From Verrucomicrobiota bacterium (GTDB lineage Bacteria > Verrucomicrobiota > Verrucomicrobiia > Limisphaerales > CANJSG01), in assembly GCA_038209745.1 (NCBI GenBank), contig JBBQXJ010000035.1:1-45909 (forward strand): a stretch of DNA of 45,909 bases, in the 5' to 3' direction. Positions 9,001-15,000 of the stretch are shown piece by piece. The stretch's first letter is position 1, and each line of letters opens with the position of its first letter. The position numbers were made by a program.

Positions 9001-12000
9001 GCCGCCAATCCGGCGAACCCCAATCCGAACCGCCCGGTGGTCTTCGGCAAACAGTCCTGGGACGAGATGTTCATCGGCTTCTTCGAAGCGGCGGACGATC
9101 CGGAAATCGTGAAGACAGCGTCCCGGTAGAGCGCGGAACAGTCGATTTTTCGTCCGCTTCAAATCGAGCGGGACAAGCCCGGTTCTTTCAGGCACGAAGA
9201 ACGCATGACCCGCCTCCGTTCATTCTGCGCAGCACTCTTGCTTGTCGGTTCACTCCCGTTGGTCCACGCCGCAGATCTGTCCGCACTCCCACGAAGCACC
9301 CCGGAAGCGGAGGGCGTAGCGTCCGCCGCGATCCACGCGTTCGTCGATGCCGCCGATCAAGTGGACGCGATGAACAGCGTCATGATCGTGCGGCACGGAC
9401 ACGTCATCGCCGAGGGTTGGTGGAGGCCCTACGACGCCGCGAGCACCCACGAGCTGTATTCGCTGAGCAAGAGCTTCACCTCCACCGCCGTCGGGTTCGC
9501 CGTCGCCGAGGGGAAGCTGAGCGTGGACGACGAGGTCCTGAAGTTCTTTCCCGACGACGCCCCCGCCGAACCCAGCGCGAACCTAAAATCCATGCGGGTG
9601 CGCGATCTGCTCAGCATGTCCACCGGCCATCAGGACGAACCGTCCTCCGCAGCGGACAAGGTTTCGCCGAAAACGTTCCTCGCCCAGCCGGTGCCGCACA
9701 AGCCGGGCACCCACTTCAAATACAACACGGCCGCCACCTTCATGCTGTCGGCCATTGTGCAGAAGGTCACGGGGCAGACGGTCTTCGACTATCTCACGCC
9801 CCGGCTCTTCCAGCCGCTCGGCATCACCGGAGCCACGTGGGCCACGAATTTCCAGGGCATCGATCTTGGCGGCTACGGCCTGAAAGTCCGGACCGAGGAC
9901 ATCGCGAAGCTGGGCCAGCTCTACCTCGAGAAAGGCCAATGGCACGGCAAGCAGCTCCTGCCCGCAGCCTGGGTCGAAGCGGCGACCTCCAAACAGACCT
10001 CGAACGGCAGCAACCCGAAGAGCGATTGGGACCAAGGCTACGGCTACCAGTTCTGGCGCTGCCGGAACGGCGCCTATCGAGGCGACGGCGCCTTCGGCCA
10101 ATACTGCATCGTGCTGCCCGAACAGGACACCGTGGTGGCGATCACCAGCGGTGTGACGGACATGCAGGCGGTCTTGAACGTCGTCTGGGACAAGCTGCTG
10201 CCCGCCTTGCAGTCCGGCCCTCTGCCCGCGAATCCAACCGCGCACAAAGAGCTGGAAGAGACGCTGGCCCACTTGTCGGTCCGCACGCCGGACGGCGCAG
10301 CGGCCTCGCCCCTCGTGGCCAAGATCGCGAACAAAGTGTTCAAGTTTGCAGACAATGGACAAGGGCTCGAGGCGATCACGCTCGTGCCTAATTCAGCGGG
10401 CAGCGGGTTCGCGCTGGTGTCCCGTTCACGCGGGGTCGAAAGCCGGTTGGCCTGCGGCTTCCACGAATGGAAAAGGAGCCGCGGCGACTTCGGTTCGGGA
10501 TTGATGGGCCGCTACACCGACGAGCCGCTCGCCGCCAGCGCCGCTTGGCTTTCGGACGACACGCTCATCGTGAAGGTGTGCGCCGACGAGACGCCTTTCT
10601 ACGCCACCGTGCGGCTGCGCTTCGAGGGCGACAAATTGATCCATGACCGCGAAGTCAACGTTGGCTTCGGCGGTCCGAAACAGCCGCAGCTCGTCGGCCA
10701 AGCGGAGTGAGCGGATGGTTCAATCAGCGAGCCTGAACCTAACGGGCACTTCGACGTCGGACTCCACCGGGTTCAAACCCGCCCGCGCCGGTTGGAACTC
10801 CCACGTTCGGACAGCAGTCAAAGCGGCTTCGTCGAGGATCTGTATTCCGGAGCTGTGCTTGAGTTCAACCCTAAGAGGACGCCCTTGGGCGCTGACTTTG
10901 ACATCCAGCAGAACCACCCCTTCCTGTCTTCTTCGCCGAGCCGCCGCTGGATAGGGCAGCTCCGGATTCTTCCGGTAGTCGGGCTCTGCCCGGAGACTGA
11001 ACATCGGCTTGGAGGATACGGCCTCCGTTCCGGGATTCGCAGAGCCATGCTGCTCTGGAACCGTTGTTGGCCCCGGCCCAGTGGCCGCTACAGCGGTCGA
11101 CTTCGCGGCGGCGGATGCTTCCGCCATCGGGGAAGGTCCAGCCGCTTCCAAGTTTTTGGCGCGGGGTGCGGAATCGCTCGGCTCCGCAAGTGGCTCCAGA
11201 GGCGTTGGCCCAGGCTTTTCGGTCGGCAATGGTTCCGTTGGGGGCCGGGGTTCAACCGGCGGTTGCACCGGCTCGGAGGCGGGTTCCTCCGGGGCTGTTG
11301 TCGCCGATGCCGTCTGTTGCAGCGCCTCCGAGGCCGACGGCTCGCGGGGCCCAACCTGGGTGTCCGGACGAGGATCGACGACCGTCTCCTCGGGGATCGT
11401 CACGAGTGTCAGTTCAATGGACTGCTCCCGATCACTGGACGGCAATTGAACGGCGCGAAGGCCCGTCCCGAACCACAGGACGGCTCCCGACACGGCGATG
11501 TGCACGCCCAGTGAGACGCCGACACTGAAGCGAAGCGGAGTCACCTTGGCCTCCGTTCGTCAAAACCGCGCGGTCAATGCCAAGCGGGCCTGGATCGGCT
11601 CGACGGGATGGAAGTGGATCTGGGACTCGATCGGGTCGCCCGGTCGCACCCGCGACTCGTAGGCGTAGTCGATGTCGTGGTCGCGCCGGTTGAGGAGGTT
11701 GAAAACATCGGCGGTCAGCGTCCACGTCTTGTTGAGGCGGTAGCCGACCTGGGCACCGAGCAGGATGGTTTCGCCGGAGCGGACGCTGTTGTCCGCCACC
11801 AACGGGCGCGGGCCGAAGTAACGGAGGCGCAGGCTCCCGAAAAGACCCGAGTCGGCAGAGTAGCTGATTCCGGCGGCAACGACGCTCTCGATGGATCCCG
11901 GGATGTGGTCGCCGGCCGGATCCTCGCCGCGGAACTGCGCGTGCGACATCGAGTAGTCCAGGTCCAGGGAAAAATGCTTCGTGATGCTGTAGAAGTTGGC

Positions 12001-15000
12001 CCACTCGAAGCCGTAGCGCCGGCTGGGGCGGCCCGCTTCCGTGGTGCCCGCGTCGCCCGCGAAGACCAGCTCGGAATCGATGTCGAGCCACCAGACCGAG
12101 AGGGTGCTCTGGAGGGCGTCCACTGCGAGCGTGCGCACGCCGATTTCCGCTCCGTAGGTCCGGACGAGCGGATCGGCGCGCTGGATGGGATTGCCGGCCG
12201 CGTCCAGCGTGCTGCCGGTCACCGGATCCACCCTCGTGGTCGCACCGCGTCCGTCGTTGCTGTGGAAGCCGAGCCCGCCCTGGAGGTAGATCTCCGTCTT
12301 CGCCCACGGACCAAAGATCAGGCTGAGCTTGGGACTGGCGATGGCGGCGAGACGGTCACCCGAATTCTCGGTGCGGGTGCTTTGCACGTCGTAGCGGTAG
12401 AAGTCGCCGCGCAGGCCCGCGACGCTGCGAAGCTTCGTCGCCCATTGGATCCGGTTTTCGTAGTAGGGCCCCACGCTGGTCTGGAGGGTTTCGTCCTGTC
12501 GAACGGTCGCCGGGAGCGGGGATCCGTCGGATGCGTCGACCTTGTCCACGCGTTGCCGTCGGAAGGTGTTGAAGAGCCCGTTTTGGATGGCGTCGTTGCG
12601 GAACTGGAGTCCGAAGGTGTTCTCCACTTCGCGCTCGAACCAGGTGTTGTAGAGCGTGTGGCTGGCGATGAGTCCGGCGGCCCAGCGCATGTCGGTCTGT
12701 TCGAATTGATCGCCGCGATTGGTGTCGGTGAGGAAGTAGGTGAAGTCCGAGAAGAGATCGAGATCGTAGTAGAAGCCGTAGGCCATGACCTTGGTGGCGG
12801 ACGCCGGCCCTGCCCGGTTCCATTCGGCCTGGAGGCTGTATCGCTGGGAGTTGCCGCCGGTCGTGCCGTCGAGCGATCCGAAGAGCGGCACGAGTCCGGC
12901 GTCCACGGCACTGGCCGCGATTTGATCGCTCGAATCCCATTGACCGTGGTAGCCGCGGGCGGTGATGGAGAAACCGTTGGCCGAGTCCCCTTGGCTGTAG
13001 GTCAACACGCCGTTAAATTTCCGGTAGTTGTCCGAAGTCTCCCACGGACCATCGTAATGGTAGGCCTCCACTCCGTAGAGCAGGTTTCCTTGGCCGACTT
13101 TCGGCGAAGCGGCATAGACGGCGCGGCCGTAGCCATACATGCCGCCTTCGACAATCGCCAGGCTCTGCGGGAGCACGCTGAAAGATTCCAGATGTGCGGC
13201 CCCGGCCGACGCGAAGTCGCCGTTCTCCGCATAGTAGACGCCCTTCTGGTAGTTCACCCGCTGCACCAGTTCCGGGATGACGATGTTCAAGTCCGTGTAG
13301 CCCTGCCCGTGGCCGTGGGTCGGCAGGTTCACCGGCATGCCGTCGAGCGACGTGGCGAAGTCCGTGCCGTGGTCGAGATTGAATCCGCGCAGGAAATACT
13401 GGTTCGCCTTACCGCCGCCCGCGTGCTGCGTGATGATCACGCCGGGCACGGATTCCAGGATCTCCCCGACGCGGGCCGTCGGTCGGGCCTCCAATTGCTT
13501 CGCCCCGACAGTGCCCTGTGTGGCCGAATCCGCGATGCCGACGAGACTGTCCGCGCGGCCCTCCACCACGACCTCGGGCAGGCGCGTCGTCGTGTTCGTT
13601 CTGTTCTCCTTATTGGATGCGAGCGGATTCGTCTCCTGCTGGGCCAGCGCCGAACTTCCCATGCAACAGGCGATGGCCAATGCGGCTGCGCGCGCCACCA
13701 CCAGACCCGTCGCGTGCAGCAACAGGGTCGCAACCAAGAATCCGCAGCCGAAGGTCAGCAAGCTGACCGTTCCAGGCATCTCGGCTCCATGCGCGAAGCC
13801 GTGGAAGAACCCGAAAAAACCGACGACCGCCGAACCGATGAAGGCGTTCAACCGGACGCGCCTGGCCACGAGAAACACGAACACCACGACGGACAAGGAG
13901 ATCGCCAACTCGACGCCGGGCAGCCCGACTCCCATCGCGCCCGCCAACCCTCCCAGGCTCATCACGCCGACGAACGTCGTGGGGATGAGCCACAACGCCC
14001 TTCCCTTTTGCTGGGCCGCCCAGATACCCACCGCCAGCATCGCCAGCAGATGGTCCCAGCCGTGCAGCGGATGGCTGAACCCGTCCTGCCACCCGTTCAT
14101 CGAACCTCCCGCCGAATGGGCCTGGGCCAAGGTTGGAAAAAGGAAGAAGACCCCCAGCAGAACGAACATTTTTAGAAGGCTTGATTTCATGTCGATCTAA
14201 TCCCGCGGCGAACGCCGGTTGGCGTTCGCGGTTTCAGTTTTGAAGGCGGCAAAAGCCATCCGGTTGAACGCAGCCACGCGCTTTCGCCCGCCATCGCTGC
14301 CACAGGTGCCTCGACCTGATTTCTAGCCGGTCCGTGGATCACGGCAAACCGGTTCTTGAAATCATGTCGCGCGAACCCTGCCGTTCATCGACTGGATACG
14401 CGTCGAACTAGCGTTCGGATGCATGGTCGGTCGGAAAACAATCCACAACGGCGAACGCCAGTTGCAGGCGCCTCGATTGTCTGCACGAAAACTGATCCGC
14501 AAGAATTGCCCTGACAGGGACTTTTTGAAGAATCGGCGATTCAGAATGCCGGCCTTCCCCGATTAGGGTCAGGTCGTCTCCAGCCCTCGCATCGTGCCGG
14601 TGGCCGAGGCGAATTTGTCCGCCTCGATCCCCATCCGCTGGAGCATGGAGACGAAGAGATTGGGCAGCGGGTAGTTGCGCTCCAGGTCGAAGCCGAGGTG
14701 CTGGCCGTGTTTGAATCCACCGCCGGCGAAGATCACCGGGAGGTTCGTGGTCACGTGGGTGTTGGCGTTCCCCAGGTTCGAGCCATACAGAATCATGGTG
14801 CGATCCAGCACCGTCGCGTCGCCTTCGCGGACGGCCTTCAACTCGGTGAACAGGTTTCCGAGCAGCTTCATGTGCCATTCGTCGATGGACTGGAGCTGCT
14901 CCAGCTTTTCCTTGGACCGTCCGTGGTGAGACAGGTTGTGGTAGCCATCGCTGGTCTTGTGTCCGTCGAACTCCAACGCGGGGGAATTGACGCTGTCGAG

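What a model noticed while it worked through the whole genome (the two positions that open the first line are those of the whole stretch)
11560..14169. HupE/UreJ nickel-cobalt permease fused to a TonB-dependent outer-membrane receptor through an internal cleavable signal [...]
g02022 (869 aa) joins, in one frame, a HupE/UreJ inner-membrane Ni/Co permease (own N-terminal signal peptide ending AQA|HS, res 1-164) to a complete TonB-dependent receptor (plug 220-324, barrel 380-825). Between them lies a second signal-peptide-like stretch (Arg160, hydrophobic residues 161-176, predicted cut between Ala176 and Gln177): a hydrophobic helix followed by an A-x-A signal-peptidase-I site and then a TonB-box-like RLPEVVVEGR. 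Prediction: one polyprotein is inserted, then cut in the periplasm, to give the outer- and the inner-membrane halves of one Ni/Co uptake route in equal amounts; TonB (g02021) is the next gene.
Evidence so far: Pfam: HupE_UreJ 9-164 (model 4-159 of 179, E 5e-48), Plug 220-324, TonB_dep_Rec_b-barrel 380-825; 42.8% identity to R. leguminosarum HupE. Sequence of the joint read directly. find_homologous_proteins with res 40-340: of the 120 best clusters listed 113 are >=800 aa and nearly all carry PF04955+PF07715+PF00593 and cover the joint 99-100% so the fusion is conserved in many genomes (the few source names shown are Verrucomicrobiota). In 29 of the 30 relatives printed the joint has Arg + ~16 hydrophobic residues + small-x-small (A-x-A/A-x-G) + Q/E and then an RLPEVVV-like motif; the 30th lacks its N-terminal residues, so the fixed window falls past its joint. 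Neighbours: TonB family g02021, HXXS [...]
(Added by a program. Inside this text positions count along the whole contig: contig position 1 is position 1 of the stretch shown here. "Call 12" and the like, gene names such as g00115 and contig names such as C1 are that model's own, and its searches are not shown. The text may have been shortened before it was handed on; [...] marks where a part breaks off. The agent that wrote the report below was given it as the finding of a first reader that could run no searches.)

Follow-up and report, generated by a model that had tools for sequence, protein, structure and literature searches.

The report
Nickel permease fused to outer-membrane receptor
One gene encodes an inner-membrane nickel/cobalt permease joined to an outer-membrane TonB-dependent receptor through what looks like the receptor's own signal peptide, so a single precursor is probably cut into both halves of a metal uptake route.

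Summary
Window 11560-14190(-) is one open frame. It carries HupE/UreJ helices 1-5, then Arg, 16 residues ending A-x-A|Q, then a TonB-box-like motif, plug and barrel. The start is probably ATG 14190 (876 aa), not 14169.

The fusion is conserved: all 120 best relatives carry HupE+Plug. Contigs from four sequencing runs cross the joint without indels.

New evidence for cleavage:
- Unfused orthologues (up to 76% identical) begin with ordinary N-terminal signal peptides ending at the same aligned A-x-A|Q.
- In 93 fused proteins, -3, -1 and +1 are at least 90% conserved while the hydrophobic core varies.
- Charges follow the positive-inside rule.
- HupE has lost its own basic loop and sixth helix.
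- A second, rarer fusion of HupE to a small outer-membrane barrel uses the same joint.

Evidence for nickel: NikR lies beside 36 of 66 unfused orthologues and NiCoT beside 6. The host genome has urease and NikR, and no other HupE or NiCoT.

Side finding: a conserved 76-nt leader RNA, absent from Rfam, precedes fused genes, unfused receptors and NiCoT genes. It is a candidate metal-sensing off-switch.

Cleavage, metal specificity and the RNA's ligand are all untested.

The parts
11560..14190 (-). Whole fused gene, 876 aa from ATG 14190 (869 aa if started at 14169). Stop codon at 11560-11562.
   Evidence: ORF list and translation. The K-containing n-region is present only with the longer start and matches homologues.
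14119..14190 (-). First signal peptide, residues 1-24 (MKSSLLKMFVLLGVFFLFPTLAQA|HS). The predicted cut exposes His25.
   Evidence: A24 and H25 are conserved in at least 90% of 93 fused proteins. Mean K/R in residues 1-9 is 1.96. A review states that HupE/UreJ is made as a precursor (passage, PMC4284471).
13693..14118 (-). HupE/UreJ core, residues 25-166: five membrane helices carrying HPLHGWDH and FHGFAHGAE.
   Evidence: Pfam PF04955, E 1.7e-47, model 4-159/179. H40, P41, G44, H47, F129, H130, G131, A133, H134, G135 and E137 are invariant in 93 sequences. hhalign against 73 stand-alone HupE gives probability 100% and ends at residue 173.
13642..13692 (-). Internal signal peptide, residues 167-183: R + AAALAIACCMG + SSALA. 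Predicted signal peptidase I cut lies between A183 (13642-13644) and Q184 (13639-13641).
   Evidence: Counts in 93 sequences: R167 90/93; -3 is A85 V5 G1 S1 T1; -1 is A88 G2 V2 T1; +1 is Q84 E6 D2 L1. There are 16 residues from R to -1 in all 93 aligned rows. The stretch aligns with N-terminal signal peptides of unfused orthologues.
13555..13641 (-). Predicted mature N-terminus of the receptor, residues 184-212: QQETN..., a variable linker, then the TonB-box-like RLPEVVVEGR (203-212; 13555-13584).
   Evidence: T187 70/93, N188 74/93, L204 86/93, V209 90/93, G211 91/93, R212 93/93. Linker length varies from 4 to 27 aa. The TonB-box assignment rests on position and motif only.
13198..13512 (-). 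Plug domain, residues 227-331 in 876-aa numbering.
   Evidence: Pfam PF07715, E 2.7e-15.
11695..13032 (-). 22-strand-type beta-barrel domain, residues 387-832. The protein ends in ...LTARF.
   Evidence: Pfam PF00593, E 1.1e-20. Terminal F876 is conserved in at least 90%. The best solved relatives by sequence are only distant: YncD/PqqU at 3e-10 and BtuB plug at 1.6e-6.
10720..11544 (-). TonB family gene, 15 nt downstream on the same strand.
   Evidence: Pfam TonB_C, E 8.2e-22. A TonB homologue also follows the receptor in L004, L015, L024, L025 and L035 and in L016.
14236..14311 (-). Candidate cis-regulatory leader RNA, three helices, ending about 45 nt before the start codon.
   Evidence: Covariance model R1 scores the window copy at 66.3 bits. 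Model R1 finds 36 copies in loci and metagenome contigs. No Rfam family matches, even at E<=10. Covariation support is weak.
14208..14229 (-). Perfect 9+9 palindrome with a 4-nt loop, 18 nt before ATG 14190. Its role is unknown; it may be part of the expression platform.
   Evidence: Chance is not excluded: a match with up to 3 mismatches turned up somewhere in the window in 21 of 100 shuffles. It was not found upstream of homologues.

Best explanation
The gene encodes a precursor that the Sec machinery inserts into the inner membrane and that signal peptidase I cuts twice.

The first cut, after Ala24, removes an ordinary signal peptide and exposes His25 of a HupE/UreJ nickel/cobalt permease.

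The chain then crosses the membrane five times, and helix 5 ends in the cytoplasm at Arg167. The next 16 residues (h-region plus G-S-S-A-L-A) act as an internal signal peptide. They carry the rest of the chain into the periplasm and are cut after Ala183.

The released 693-residue protein begins with Gln184. It is a normal TonB-dependent receptor that goes to the outer membrane and is energised by the TonB encoded next door.

The signal peptide stays attached to HupE as a substitute sixth helix, because HupE's own basic loop and sixth helix have been lost.

Together the two products would carry nickel (less likely cobalt) across both membranes, probably to feed urease.

Shown: the anatomy, its conservation, homology of the joint to true N-terminal signal peptides, the charge topology, and the nickel gene context of orthologues.

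Inferred: the cleavage, the final locations, the metal, and the role of the retained helix.
For: 1. Unfused orthologues of the receptor part (47-76% identity) begin with standard signal peptides that end at the same aligned A-x-A|Q, followed by the same Q..TN...RLPEVVVxGR. Examples are L014 (...NLVVFVVACVMGSAAQA|QDAN), L015, L026, L033 and L037, and the same-genus homologues (MKSRFLRRSRKLVPLIAPFVIGTSALHA|QN). Their tblastn alignment to the fusion starts at residue 167, the Arg.

2. In 93 fused proteins R167, A181 (-3), A183 (-1) and Q184 (+1) are each at least 90% conserved. The ten h-region positions are variable but hydrophobic, and positions 178-180 are G/S/T/K.

3. Lys/Arg sit only in loop 1 (mean 1.86), loop 3 (2.29) and the turn at 167 (0.97). 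Asp/Glu sit in loops 2 and 4. This gives N-out and puts residue 167 inside.

4. Homology to 73 stand-alone HupE proteins ends at residue 173. In 52 of the 64 stand-alone proteins counted there are 36-41 residues from the helix-5 His to the C-terminus. The fusion has only 24 residues from that His to the cut site, so the basic loop is missing.

5. The HupE motifs are invariant, so the N-terminal part is under selection. The terminal Phe, typical of outer-membrane barrels, is conserved in at least 90%.

6. The linker from the cut site to the TonB-box-like motif is 4-27 residues. By general knowledge of periplasm width, that is too short to reach the outer membrane if uncut.

7. A second fusion (P0243, P0383) joins HupE helices 1-5 through R + hydrophobic stretch + A-x-A|QGG to a MetA-like small outer-membrane barrel. 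Unfused relatives of that barrel have signal peptides ending A-x-A|QGGPPL.

8. On a FastTree of receptor domains (67 rows), fused and unfused forms interleave, with at least 5 changes of state. The joint has therefore converted to or from a working N-terminal signal peptide several times.

9. Evidence for nickel: a NikR homologue lies within about 1 kb of the receptor gene in 36 of 80 loci and NiCoT in 6 of 80. The host genome has NikR and urease alpha, one HupE only, no NiCoT hit and no [NiFe] hydrogenase hit, at 92% completeness. It has signal peptidase I homologues.
Against: - There is no experimental evidence of cleavage for any member.
- The turn between helix 5 and the internal signal peptide is a single Arg, an unusually tight hairpin.
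- None of the 14 fused loci has NikR, NiCoT or a nickel enzyme next to it. The nickel assignment for fused genes therefore rests on the HupE domain and on orthology.
- HupE relatives in cyanobacteria carry cobalt (passage, PMC7689651), so cobalt is not excluded.
- In the window, GTG codons at residues 164 and 165 could allow a separate start.
- The fusion is rare among species representatives. It spans the joint only in G000 out of a 301-genome phylum sample and in 1 other genome among 40 relatives. Five of 6 same-genus genomes carry only an unfused homologue (61% identical), in a different gene context.
Confidence: 0.65

Rival explanations
1. Two proteins arise from two translation starts. 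The receptor is translated separately from an in-frame start codon inside helix 5 (GTG at residues 164/165 in the window). That gives an ordinary precursor, M-V-A-R + h-region, with no need to cleave a polyprotein. The full-length product would be minor or unused.
For: The window has GTG GTG GCG CGC just before the h-region. Five of 8 fused loci examined also have ATG/GTG/TTG within the five codons before the Arg.
Against: - Three of 8 fused loci (L004, L009, L010) have no ATG/GTG/TTG in those five codons.
- Across 93 proteins, positions 164 and 165 are often Ala or Thr (A33 and T43/A16), which no start codon can encode.
- There is no obvious ribosome-binding site, and the reading frame is kept open across the joint in all relatives.
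- This route alone would leave HupE without a stop codon of its own.
Confidence: 0.1
2. Cleavage occurs as proposed, but the cargo is not nickel. The pair could import cobalt, another divalent metal or a metal chelate. The HupE part might also act mainly as a membrane-insertion leader rather than a working permease.
For: - HupE in Synechocystis serves cobalt (PMC7689651 passage).
- JGI annotators name some members 'outer membrane cobalamin receptor'.
- TonB-dependent receptors usually take chelates.
- No nickel gene lies beside any fused locus.
- HupE here lacks its native sixth helix.
Against: - NikR lies beside 36 of 66 unfused orthologues and NiCoT beside 6.
- No cobalamin riboswitch or any other Rfam family is found in the leader.
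- The HupE signature residues are invariant in 93 sequences, which argues against a mere leader.
- The genome holds urease and NikR.
Confidence: 0.15
3. The protein is not cleaved at the joint. It stays as one inner-membrane-anchored chain, with the receptor part either non-functional or working in an unknown way from the inner membrane.
For: Nothing direct. The tight one-residue turn before the hydrophobic stretch might hinder presentation to signal peptidase. Hydrophobic stretches that follow membrane helices can act as uncleaved anchors.
Against: - The -3/-1/+1 positions are conserved as in cleaved signal peptides and align with real ones.
- Plug, barrel and terminal Phe are conserved at the level of working orthologues.
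- A linker of 4-27 residues cannot span the periplasm.
- The hydrophobic core is only about 11 residues, shorter than a stable anchor.
Confidence: 0.07

Closest known systems
HupE/UreJ secondary nickel/cobalt permeases (Pfam PF04955), e.g. Rhizobium leguminosarum HupE
   Same: - Same fold family (E 1.7e-47).
- Same signature HPxxGxDH in the first helix. A review gives this motif (PMC7689651).
- Same FHGxAHG motif.
- Made as a precursor with a cleavable signal peptide (passage, PMC4284471).
   Different: - Stand-alone proteins are about 190-200 aa and end with a basic loop plus a short sixth helix.
- Here homology stops after helix 5. The chain continues into a signal peptide and a 693-aa receptor.
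Unfused orthologous TonB-dependent receptors with NikR or NiCoT neighbours (loci L014-L081). Published nickel receptors FrpB4, FecA3, NikH, CntO, Bll6948 and Daro_3944 are named in a passage of PMC11247825.
   Same: - Plug and barrel are 47-76% identical.
- Same mature N-terminus, Q..TN, and same TonB-box-like motif.
- TonB and ExbD neighbours in some loci.
   Different: - They start with an ordinary N-terminal signal peptide, or in Acidobacteria with a signal peptide plus a carboxypeptidase-regulatory-like extension (by my reading), not with HupE.
Bradyrhizobium FbcH cytochrome b-c1 precursor. The cleavage at an internal signal peptide is recalled from Thony-Meyer and co-workers, about 1991, and was not seen here. 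The existence of b/c1 fusions in Bradyrhizobiaceae is confirmed by passages of PMC4986455.
   Same: A multi-helix inner-membrane protein is followed in the same frame by an internal signal peptide and a second protein that must be exported.
   Different: - FbcH gives two subunits of one inner-membrane complex.
- Here the second product would leave for the outer membrane, and the two products work in different membranes.
Metal-sensing riboswitches: the Mg(II) M-box (off-switch on uptake genes) and NiCo/czcD (on-switch on efflux genes), as described in PMC11672702 (passages)
   Same: The leader RNA sits in the 5' leader of metal transporter genes. Its 3' stem strand has two mutually exclusive pairing partners and is followed by a U-run. 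This would suit an off-switch like the M-box.
   Different: - No Rfam 15 family matches, NiCo and cobalamin included.
- The element is much smaller (about 60-76 nt).
- It precedes uptake genes, not efflux genes.
- No ligand has been tested.

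Membership tests
HupE/UreJ permease (PF04955) | Profile match above the curated cut-off | tested here: met
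   161.7 bits against a cut-off of 23. The only hit in the genome.
HupE/UreJ permease (PF04955) | Signature HPxxGxDH in the first helix (motif as given in PMC7689651) | tested here: met
   HPLHGWDH is present. H40, P41, G44 and H47 are invariant; D46 is conserved in at least 90% of 93 sequences.
HupE/UreJ permease (PF04955) | Six membrane helices, including the family's own C-terminal loop and sixth helix | tested here: not met
   The Pfam match ends at model position 159 of 179. hhalign ends at residue 173. The fusion has 24 residues after the helix-5 His, against 36-41 in 52 of 64 stand-alone proteins. A sixth span exists, but it is the receptor-type signal peptide.
HupE/UreJ permease (PF04955) | Transports Ni(II) or Co(II) | not testable with these tools
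   Only context is available: NikR and NiCoT beside orthologues of the fused receptor, and urease and NikR in the genome.
TonB-dependent receptor | Plug domain plus beta-barrel domain | tested here: met
   PF07715 57.2 bits; PF00593 75.4 bits.
TonB-dependent receptor | TonB box near the mature N-terminus and a C-terminal aromatic residue | tested here: inconclusive
   RLPEVVVEGR lies about 20 residues before the plug and is conserved. Terminal F is conserved in at least 90%. The TonB-box call rests on motif and position only. TonB is encoded next door.
Sec signal peptide cleaved by signal peptidase I (applied to residues 167-183) | Positive n-region, hydrophobic core of about 10 residues, polar c-region with small residues at -3 and -1, no Pro at +1 | tested here: met
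   R 90/93. The core is variable but hydrophobic. -3 is A/V/G/S/T in 93/93; -1 is A/G/T in 91/93; +1 is Q/E/D in 92/93. 117 of 120 relatives pass a regex for this pattern. No trained predictor was available.
Sec signal peptide cleaved by signal peptidase I (applied to residues 167-183) | Homology to signal peptides that are N-terminal in related proteins | tested here: met
   Alignments of unfused homologues start at residue 167 and share the cut site.
Sec signal peptide cleaved by signal peptidase I (applied to residues 167-183) | Actual cleavage | not testable with these tools
   Needs protein chemistry.
NikR-controlled nickel uptake receptor | NikR gene or NikR operator next to the gene | tested here: not met
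   For the family, NikR is adjacent in 36 of 80 loci, all of them unfused. In the window, NikR is on another contig. I saw no box like the repeated CGTAAYAC words of L022, L023, L025 and L042 in the window's leader (by eye only).
NiCo (czcD) or cobalamin riboswitch (applied to the leader RNA) | Match to the Rfam covariance model | tested here: not met
   No hit at gathering score over the window. No relevant hit at E<=10 over 14150-14620 or over the L042 leader.

The most novel reading that the evidence does not exclude
A natural bacterial polyprotein supplies two membranes at once. Signal peptidase I releases an outer-membrane TonB-dependent nickel receptor from an inner-membrane HupE permease. 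The receptor's signal peptide is not discarded; it is kept as the permease's sixth helix. The same trick was used independently with a small MetA-like barrel.

In addition, the gene is governed by a previously undescribed small riboswitch-like RNA. This RNA senses nickel (or cobalt) and shuts off three kinds of nickel importers: the HupE-receptor fusion, the unfused receptor and NiCoT.
Probability: 0.3. Interest if true: 0.85.

Novelty: new variant of a known kind. Interest (0 to 1): 0.68.

Why it matters
If the cut happens, this is a clean natural example of one gene making an inner-membrane and an outer-membrane transporter through an internal signal peptide. My four literature searches on HupE, TonB-dependent receptors, fusions and topology found no paper describing it. 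Only automatic domain annotation shows the two-domain make-up.

It would:
- tie an uncharacterised, NikR-linked receptor family to nickel;
- give a ready test system for how signal peptidase handles sites that follow multi-span domains;
- show a signal peptide reused as a structural helix.

The conserved leader RNA, if it binds metal, would be an off-switch for nickel or cobalt import. Passages of a 2024 review (PMC11672702; only the first 300,000 characters are held) do not list any such class.

Tried and rejected
Structure prediction:
- There is therefore no model, no fold search, and no check of whether the internal signal peptide packs like a sixth HupE helix.

Papers:
- Brito et al. 2010 on HupE (PMC2812973) is not held.
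- The FbcH processing papers were not found.
- Statements on HupE topology beyond the reviews, and on FbcH cleavage, are therefore recalled.

Trees: the maximum-likelihood quick search did not finish in 288 s, so FastTree was used. Its supports are local SH-like values only.

Operator search:
- Exact palindromes upstream of 17 homologous genes showed nothing shared with the window's 14208-14229 palindrome.
- Candidate NikR words (repeated CGTAAYAC) seen in L022, L023, L025 and L042 were not seen in the window's leader (by eye).

Leader RNA:
- In 151 genomes of the phylum only G000 gave a strong hit. The other 17 hits, at 24-33 bits, are short and probably chance hairpins.
- Pair counting on 36 copies gave 94.1% of cells paired, but only 2 pairs with compensatory change. 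Between 22 and 34 of 500 shuffles reached the observed values, so covariation does not prove the structure.

Expression: no RNA holder was listed for the stretch.

Domain trees of 93 fused proteins: the HupE and receptor parts place the window among the same near relatives (P0003-P0011). I therefore dropped the idea that the window's gene is a recent chimera.

My regex labels mis-file a few rows. L041 carries the N-terminal extension, and L059 and L078 are cut by contig ends, yet all three are labelled SP-only.

One repeat finder failed on a strand parameter and was not repeated.

Full report
WHAT IS THERE

Window 11560-14190 on the minus strand is one open reading frame. Pfam places HupE_UreJ at residues 9-164 of the 869-aa form. 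That match covers model positions 4-159 of 179, with E 1.7e-47. Plug lies at 220-324 and the TonB-dependent barrel at 380-825.

NCBIfam gives only weak, sub-threshold matches to siderophore, haem and B12 receptor models. The nearest solved structures by sequence are distant: YncD/PqqU at 3e-10 and the BtuB plug at 1.6e-6.

A TonB gene follows after 15 nt. DUF1552 and DUF1592-type genes lie upstream.

Only that start gives a Lys-containing n-region (MKSSLLKM...), as the homologues have.

IS THE FUSION REAL AND CONSERVED?

- All 120 best near-length relatives of residues 1-340 carry HupE plus Plug, and 116 of 120 also carry the barrel family. 114 of 120 are at least 800 aa.
- Among 80 loci fetched from species-representative genomes, 14 encode HupE in line with the receptor and 66 encode the receptor alone.
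- Contigs from four sequencing runs of four studies cross the joint without any indel. One run may be the source sample.
- The two base differences inside the joint give Cys-to-Phe in the hydrophobic core and a silent Leu change (one search read).
- The fusion is nevertheless patchy. In 301 genomes sampled from the phylum, only the window's own genome has a match that spans the joint.
- Among 40 relatives one other genome (G331) spans the joint. Five of six same-genus genomes carry only an unfused homologue, 61% identical, in a different gene context.

THE JOINT IS A SIGNAL PEPTIDE BY EVERY SEQUENCE TEST AVAILABLE

I aligned 92 of the 120 relatives with the window protein. Left out by hand were:
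- the six shorter than 800 aa;
- seven that my first regex missed;
- the near-identical P0002;
- several with long linkers or near-duplicates.

In this alignment the counts are as follows:
- Arg167 is kept in 90 of 93.
- Position -3 is A85 V5 G1 S1 T1.
- Position -1 is A88 G2 V2 T1.
- Position +1 is Q84 E6 D2 L1.
- The ten positions between are hydrophobic but freely variable.
- The three positions before -3 are Gly/Ser/Thr/Lys.

To guard against my selection, a regex over all 120 finds the pattern in 117. Two of the three misses show it by eye.

The distance from the Arg to -1 is 16 residues in all 93 aligned rows. The linker that follows varies from 4 to 27 residues.

THE DECISIVE COMPARISON: UNFUSED ORTHOLOGUES

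These orthologues are up to 76% identical over plug and barrel. They start with ordinary N-terminal signal peptides that end at the same aligned A-x-A|Q, followed by the same Q..TN and RLPEVVVxGR.

L014 even shares the core (VVFVVACVMGSAAQA|Q). The same-genus homologues begin MKSRFLRRSRKLVPLIAPFVIGTSALHA|QN, and their alignment to the fusion starts exactly at Arg167.

The internal stretch is therefore the family's signal peptide, sitting after five membrane helices instead of after a start codon.

TOPOLOGY

Across the 93 sequences, Lys/Arg occur in loop 1 (mean 1.86), loop 3 (2.29) and at 167 (0.97). Predicted periplasmic loops 2 and 4 have almost none and carry one acidic residue each. This pattern gives the following topology:
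- after removal of the first signal peptide (A24|H25, both at least 90% conserved), the N-terminus is periplasmic;
- helix 5 ends in the cytoplasm;
- the next hydrophobic stretch runs outwards, as the signal-peptide reading requires.

HupE IS TRUNCATED

A profile comparison with 73 stand-alone HupE proteins aligns residues 1-173 with probability 100% and then stops. Stand-alone proteins mostly have 36-41 residues after the helix-5 histidine (52 of 64 counted). These form a basic loop and a short terminal helix. The fusion has only 24 residues up to the cut.

After cleavage the signal peptide would remain covalently attached to HupE as a stand-in sixth helix. The fixed length of 16 residues may reflect that double duty (inference).

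The HupE signature residues are invariant, so the N-terminal part is not a decaying leader.

INDEPENDENT SUPPORT FROM A SECOND FUSION

A full-library search with residues 1-200 found P0243 (413 aa). Together with P0383, it joins HupE helices 1-5 through R + hydrophobic stretch + A-x-A|QGG to a small MetA-like outer-membrane barrel ending in ...FRF. Unfused relatives of that barrel (about 250 aa) have signal peptides ending A-x-A|QGGPPL. Only 2 of 120 listed relatives are fused, so this form is rare.

EVOLUTION

On a FastTree of 67 receptor domains, fused and signal-peptide-only forms interleave (at least 5 changes). The window's nearest rows by path are unfused (L017, L015).

In 93 fused proteins the HupE and receptor parts place the window among the same near relatives. 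One old fusion with repeated loss of the HupE part is therefore the simplest history, but it is not proven.

WHICH METAL?

- A NikR homologue lies within about 1 kb of the receptor gene in 36 of 80 loci, and a NiCoT permease lies in 6. All of these loci are unfused.
- TonB or ExbD neighbours occur in some loci.
- The host genome (92% complete) has NikR, urease alpha and signal peptidase I homologues. It has one HupE only, no NiCoT hit and no [NiFe] hydrogenase hit.

Nickel for urease is the most economical reading. Cobalt is not excluded, because some HupE proteins carry cobalt.

RIVALS

- A separate internal start is possible in this gene, which has GTG at codons 164/165. It is not a conserved feature: 3 of 8 fused loci lack any ATG/GTG/TTG in the five codons before the Arg, and positions 164/165 are often Ala or Thr.
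- An uncleaved anchor is unlikely. The linker is short, the hydrophobic core is only about 11 residues, and the plug, barrel and terminal Phe are conserved.

SIDE FINDING: A CONSERVED LEADER RNA

About 45 nt upstream of the start codon lies a conserved element (14236-14311, minus strand). It also precedes other fused genes (L005, L009, L010) and unfused receptors (L021, L026, L042, L087).

It has an outer stem (GCCACCUG with CAGGUGGC), a second stem (GCAGC with GCUGC) around a GAUGG bulge, and a third stem (CGGG with CCCG).

The 3' strand of the outer stem is followed by a U-run. It can instead pair with a downstream near-copy of the 5' strand. This arrangement would suit a terminator-type off-switch (inference).

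No Rfam 15 family matches, even at E<=10.

A covariance model finds 36 copies in held loci and in 80 metagenome loci fished with a degenerate pattern. Of the 27 metagenome copies:
- 8 precede HupE or HupE-receptor genes;
- 4 precede unfused receptors, plus one broken receptor seen by eye;
- 2 precede NiCoT genes;
- 2 precede deoxyhypusine-synthase-like genes, plus one partial;
- 2 precede DUF1559 pseudopilin-like genes;
- 1 precedes a DMT_6 gene;
- 6 have too little downstream sequence.

Three kinds of nickel/cobalt importers share one leader, which points to a metal or metal-related ligand.

The structure itself is supported only by conserved complementarity: 94.1% of cells are paired, but only two pairs show compensatory change. 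The window's own copy has a weaker outer stem. It is followed by a perfect 9+9 palindrome at 14208-14229 that homologues lack.

WHAT IS KNOWN

My four literature searches on HupE with TonB-dependent receptors, fusions or topology found no paper that describes this fusion. I read passages of PMC5557971, PMC7689651, PMC2667541, PMC11247825 and PMC4284471.

The two-domain make-up is visible in automatic annotation.

The nearest precedent for the mechanism is the cytochrome b-c1 precursor of Bradyrhizobium. The existence of that fusion is confirmed by passages of PMC4986455. Its processing through an internal signal peptide is recalled, not seen.

VERDICT

I rate it a new variant of known kinds, with a candidate new regulatory RNA attached.

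Noticed in passing
window 14236-14311 (-); also L005:9656-9732, L009:9787-9863 and 2684-2760, L010:2477-2552, L021:9820-9894, L026:4575-4650, L042:9812-9889, L087:1890-1966: A conserved three-stem leader RNA with a U-run and an alternative pairing partner. It is absent from Rfam 15. It lies upstream of HupE-receptor fusions, unfused receptors, NiCoT, deoxyhypusine-synthase-like and DUF1559 genes. It is a candidate nickel/cobalt-responsive off-switch. Covariation support is weak.
   Followed up: partly
window 14208-14229: A perfect 9+9 palindrome with a 4-nt loop, 18 nt before ATG 14190. The word GGCGTTCGC occurs again near 14445-14453. It is not shared by homologous leaders.
   Followed up: partly
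proteins P0246, P0248, P0252, P0291 and about 80 of the best 150 representatives; also P0164, P0175, P0200: A large class of 310-510-aa proteins. Each has HupE helices 1-5 (no obvious cleavable first signal peptide), then a hydrophobic stretch, then a long low-complexity tail. In P0246, P0248, P0252 and P0291 the tail carries a shared motif (YPxINxSPG...GVGxxSPP). No Pfam family matches the tail. One source names Methylococcaceae. P0242 and P0260 hold two HupE domains. Unexplained.
   Followed up: partly
proteins P0243 and P0383: HupE fused through the same kind of joint to a MetA-like small outer-membrane barrel (PF13557/PF27733). Only 2 of 120 listed relatives of the barrel are fused.
   Followed up: yes
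L009:5541-9745: In one fused locus the upstream genes are DUF4331, a TPR protein and a 386-aa protein with HupE_UreJ_2 (PF13795). A second copy of the leader RNA precedes a 480-aa ORF with no Pfam family (P0502).
   Followed up: partly
L022, L023, L025, L042 intergenic regions beside nikR: Repeated words of the type CGTAAYAC lie between nikR or nicO and the receptor gene. These are possible NikR operators. Seen by eye only.
   Followed up: no
window residues 292-298 of the fused protein (plug region; about 13297-13317): A His-x-His-Gly-Gln-Gly-Tyr stretch in the plug, in which H294, G295 and G297 are invariant and H292 and Y298 are at least 90% conserved across 93 fused proteins. It may be a metal-contacting loop.
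   Followed up: no
window 29233-45811: Six consecutive MacB_PCD/FtsX-type permease paralogues of about 800 aa with two ABC ATPase genes. They are unrelated to the finding.
   Followed up: no
P0128 and P0146 (same 59,802-nt contig): Two overlapping gene calls that together look like a frameshifted HupE-receptor fusion. This may be a sequencing error or a broken gene.
   Followed up: no
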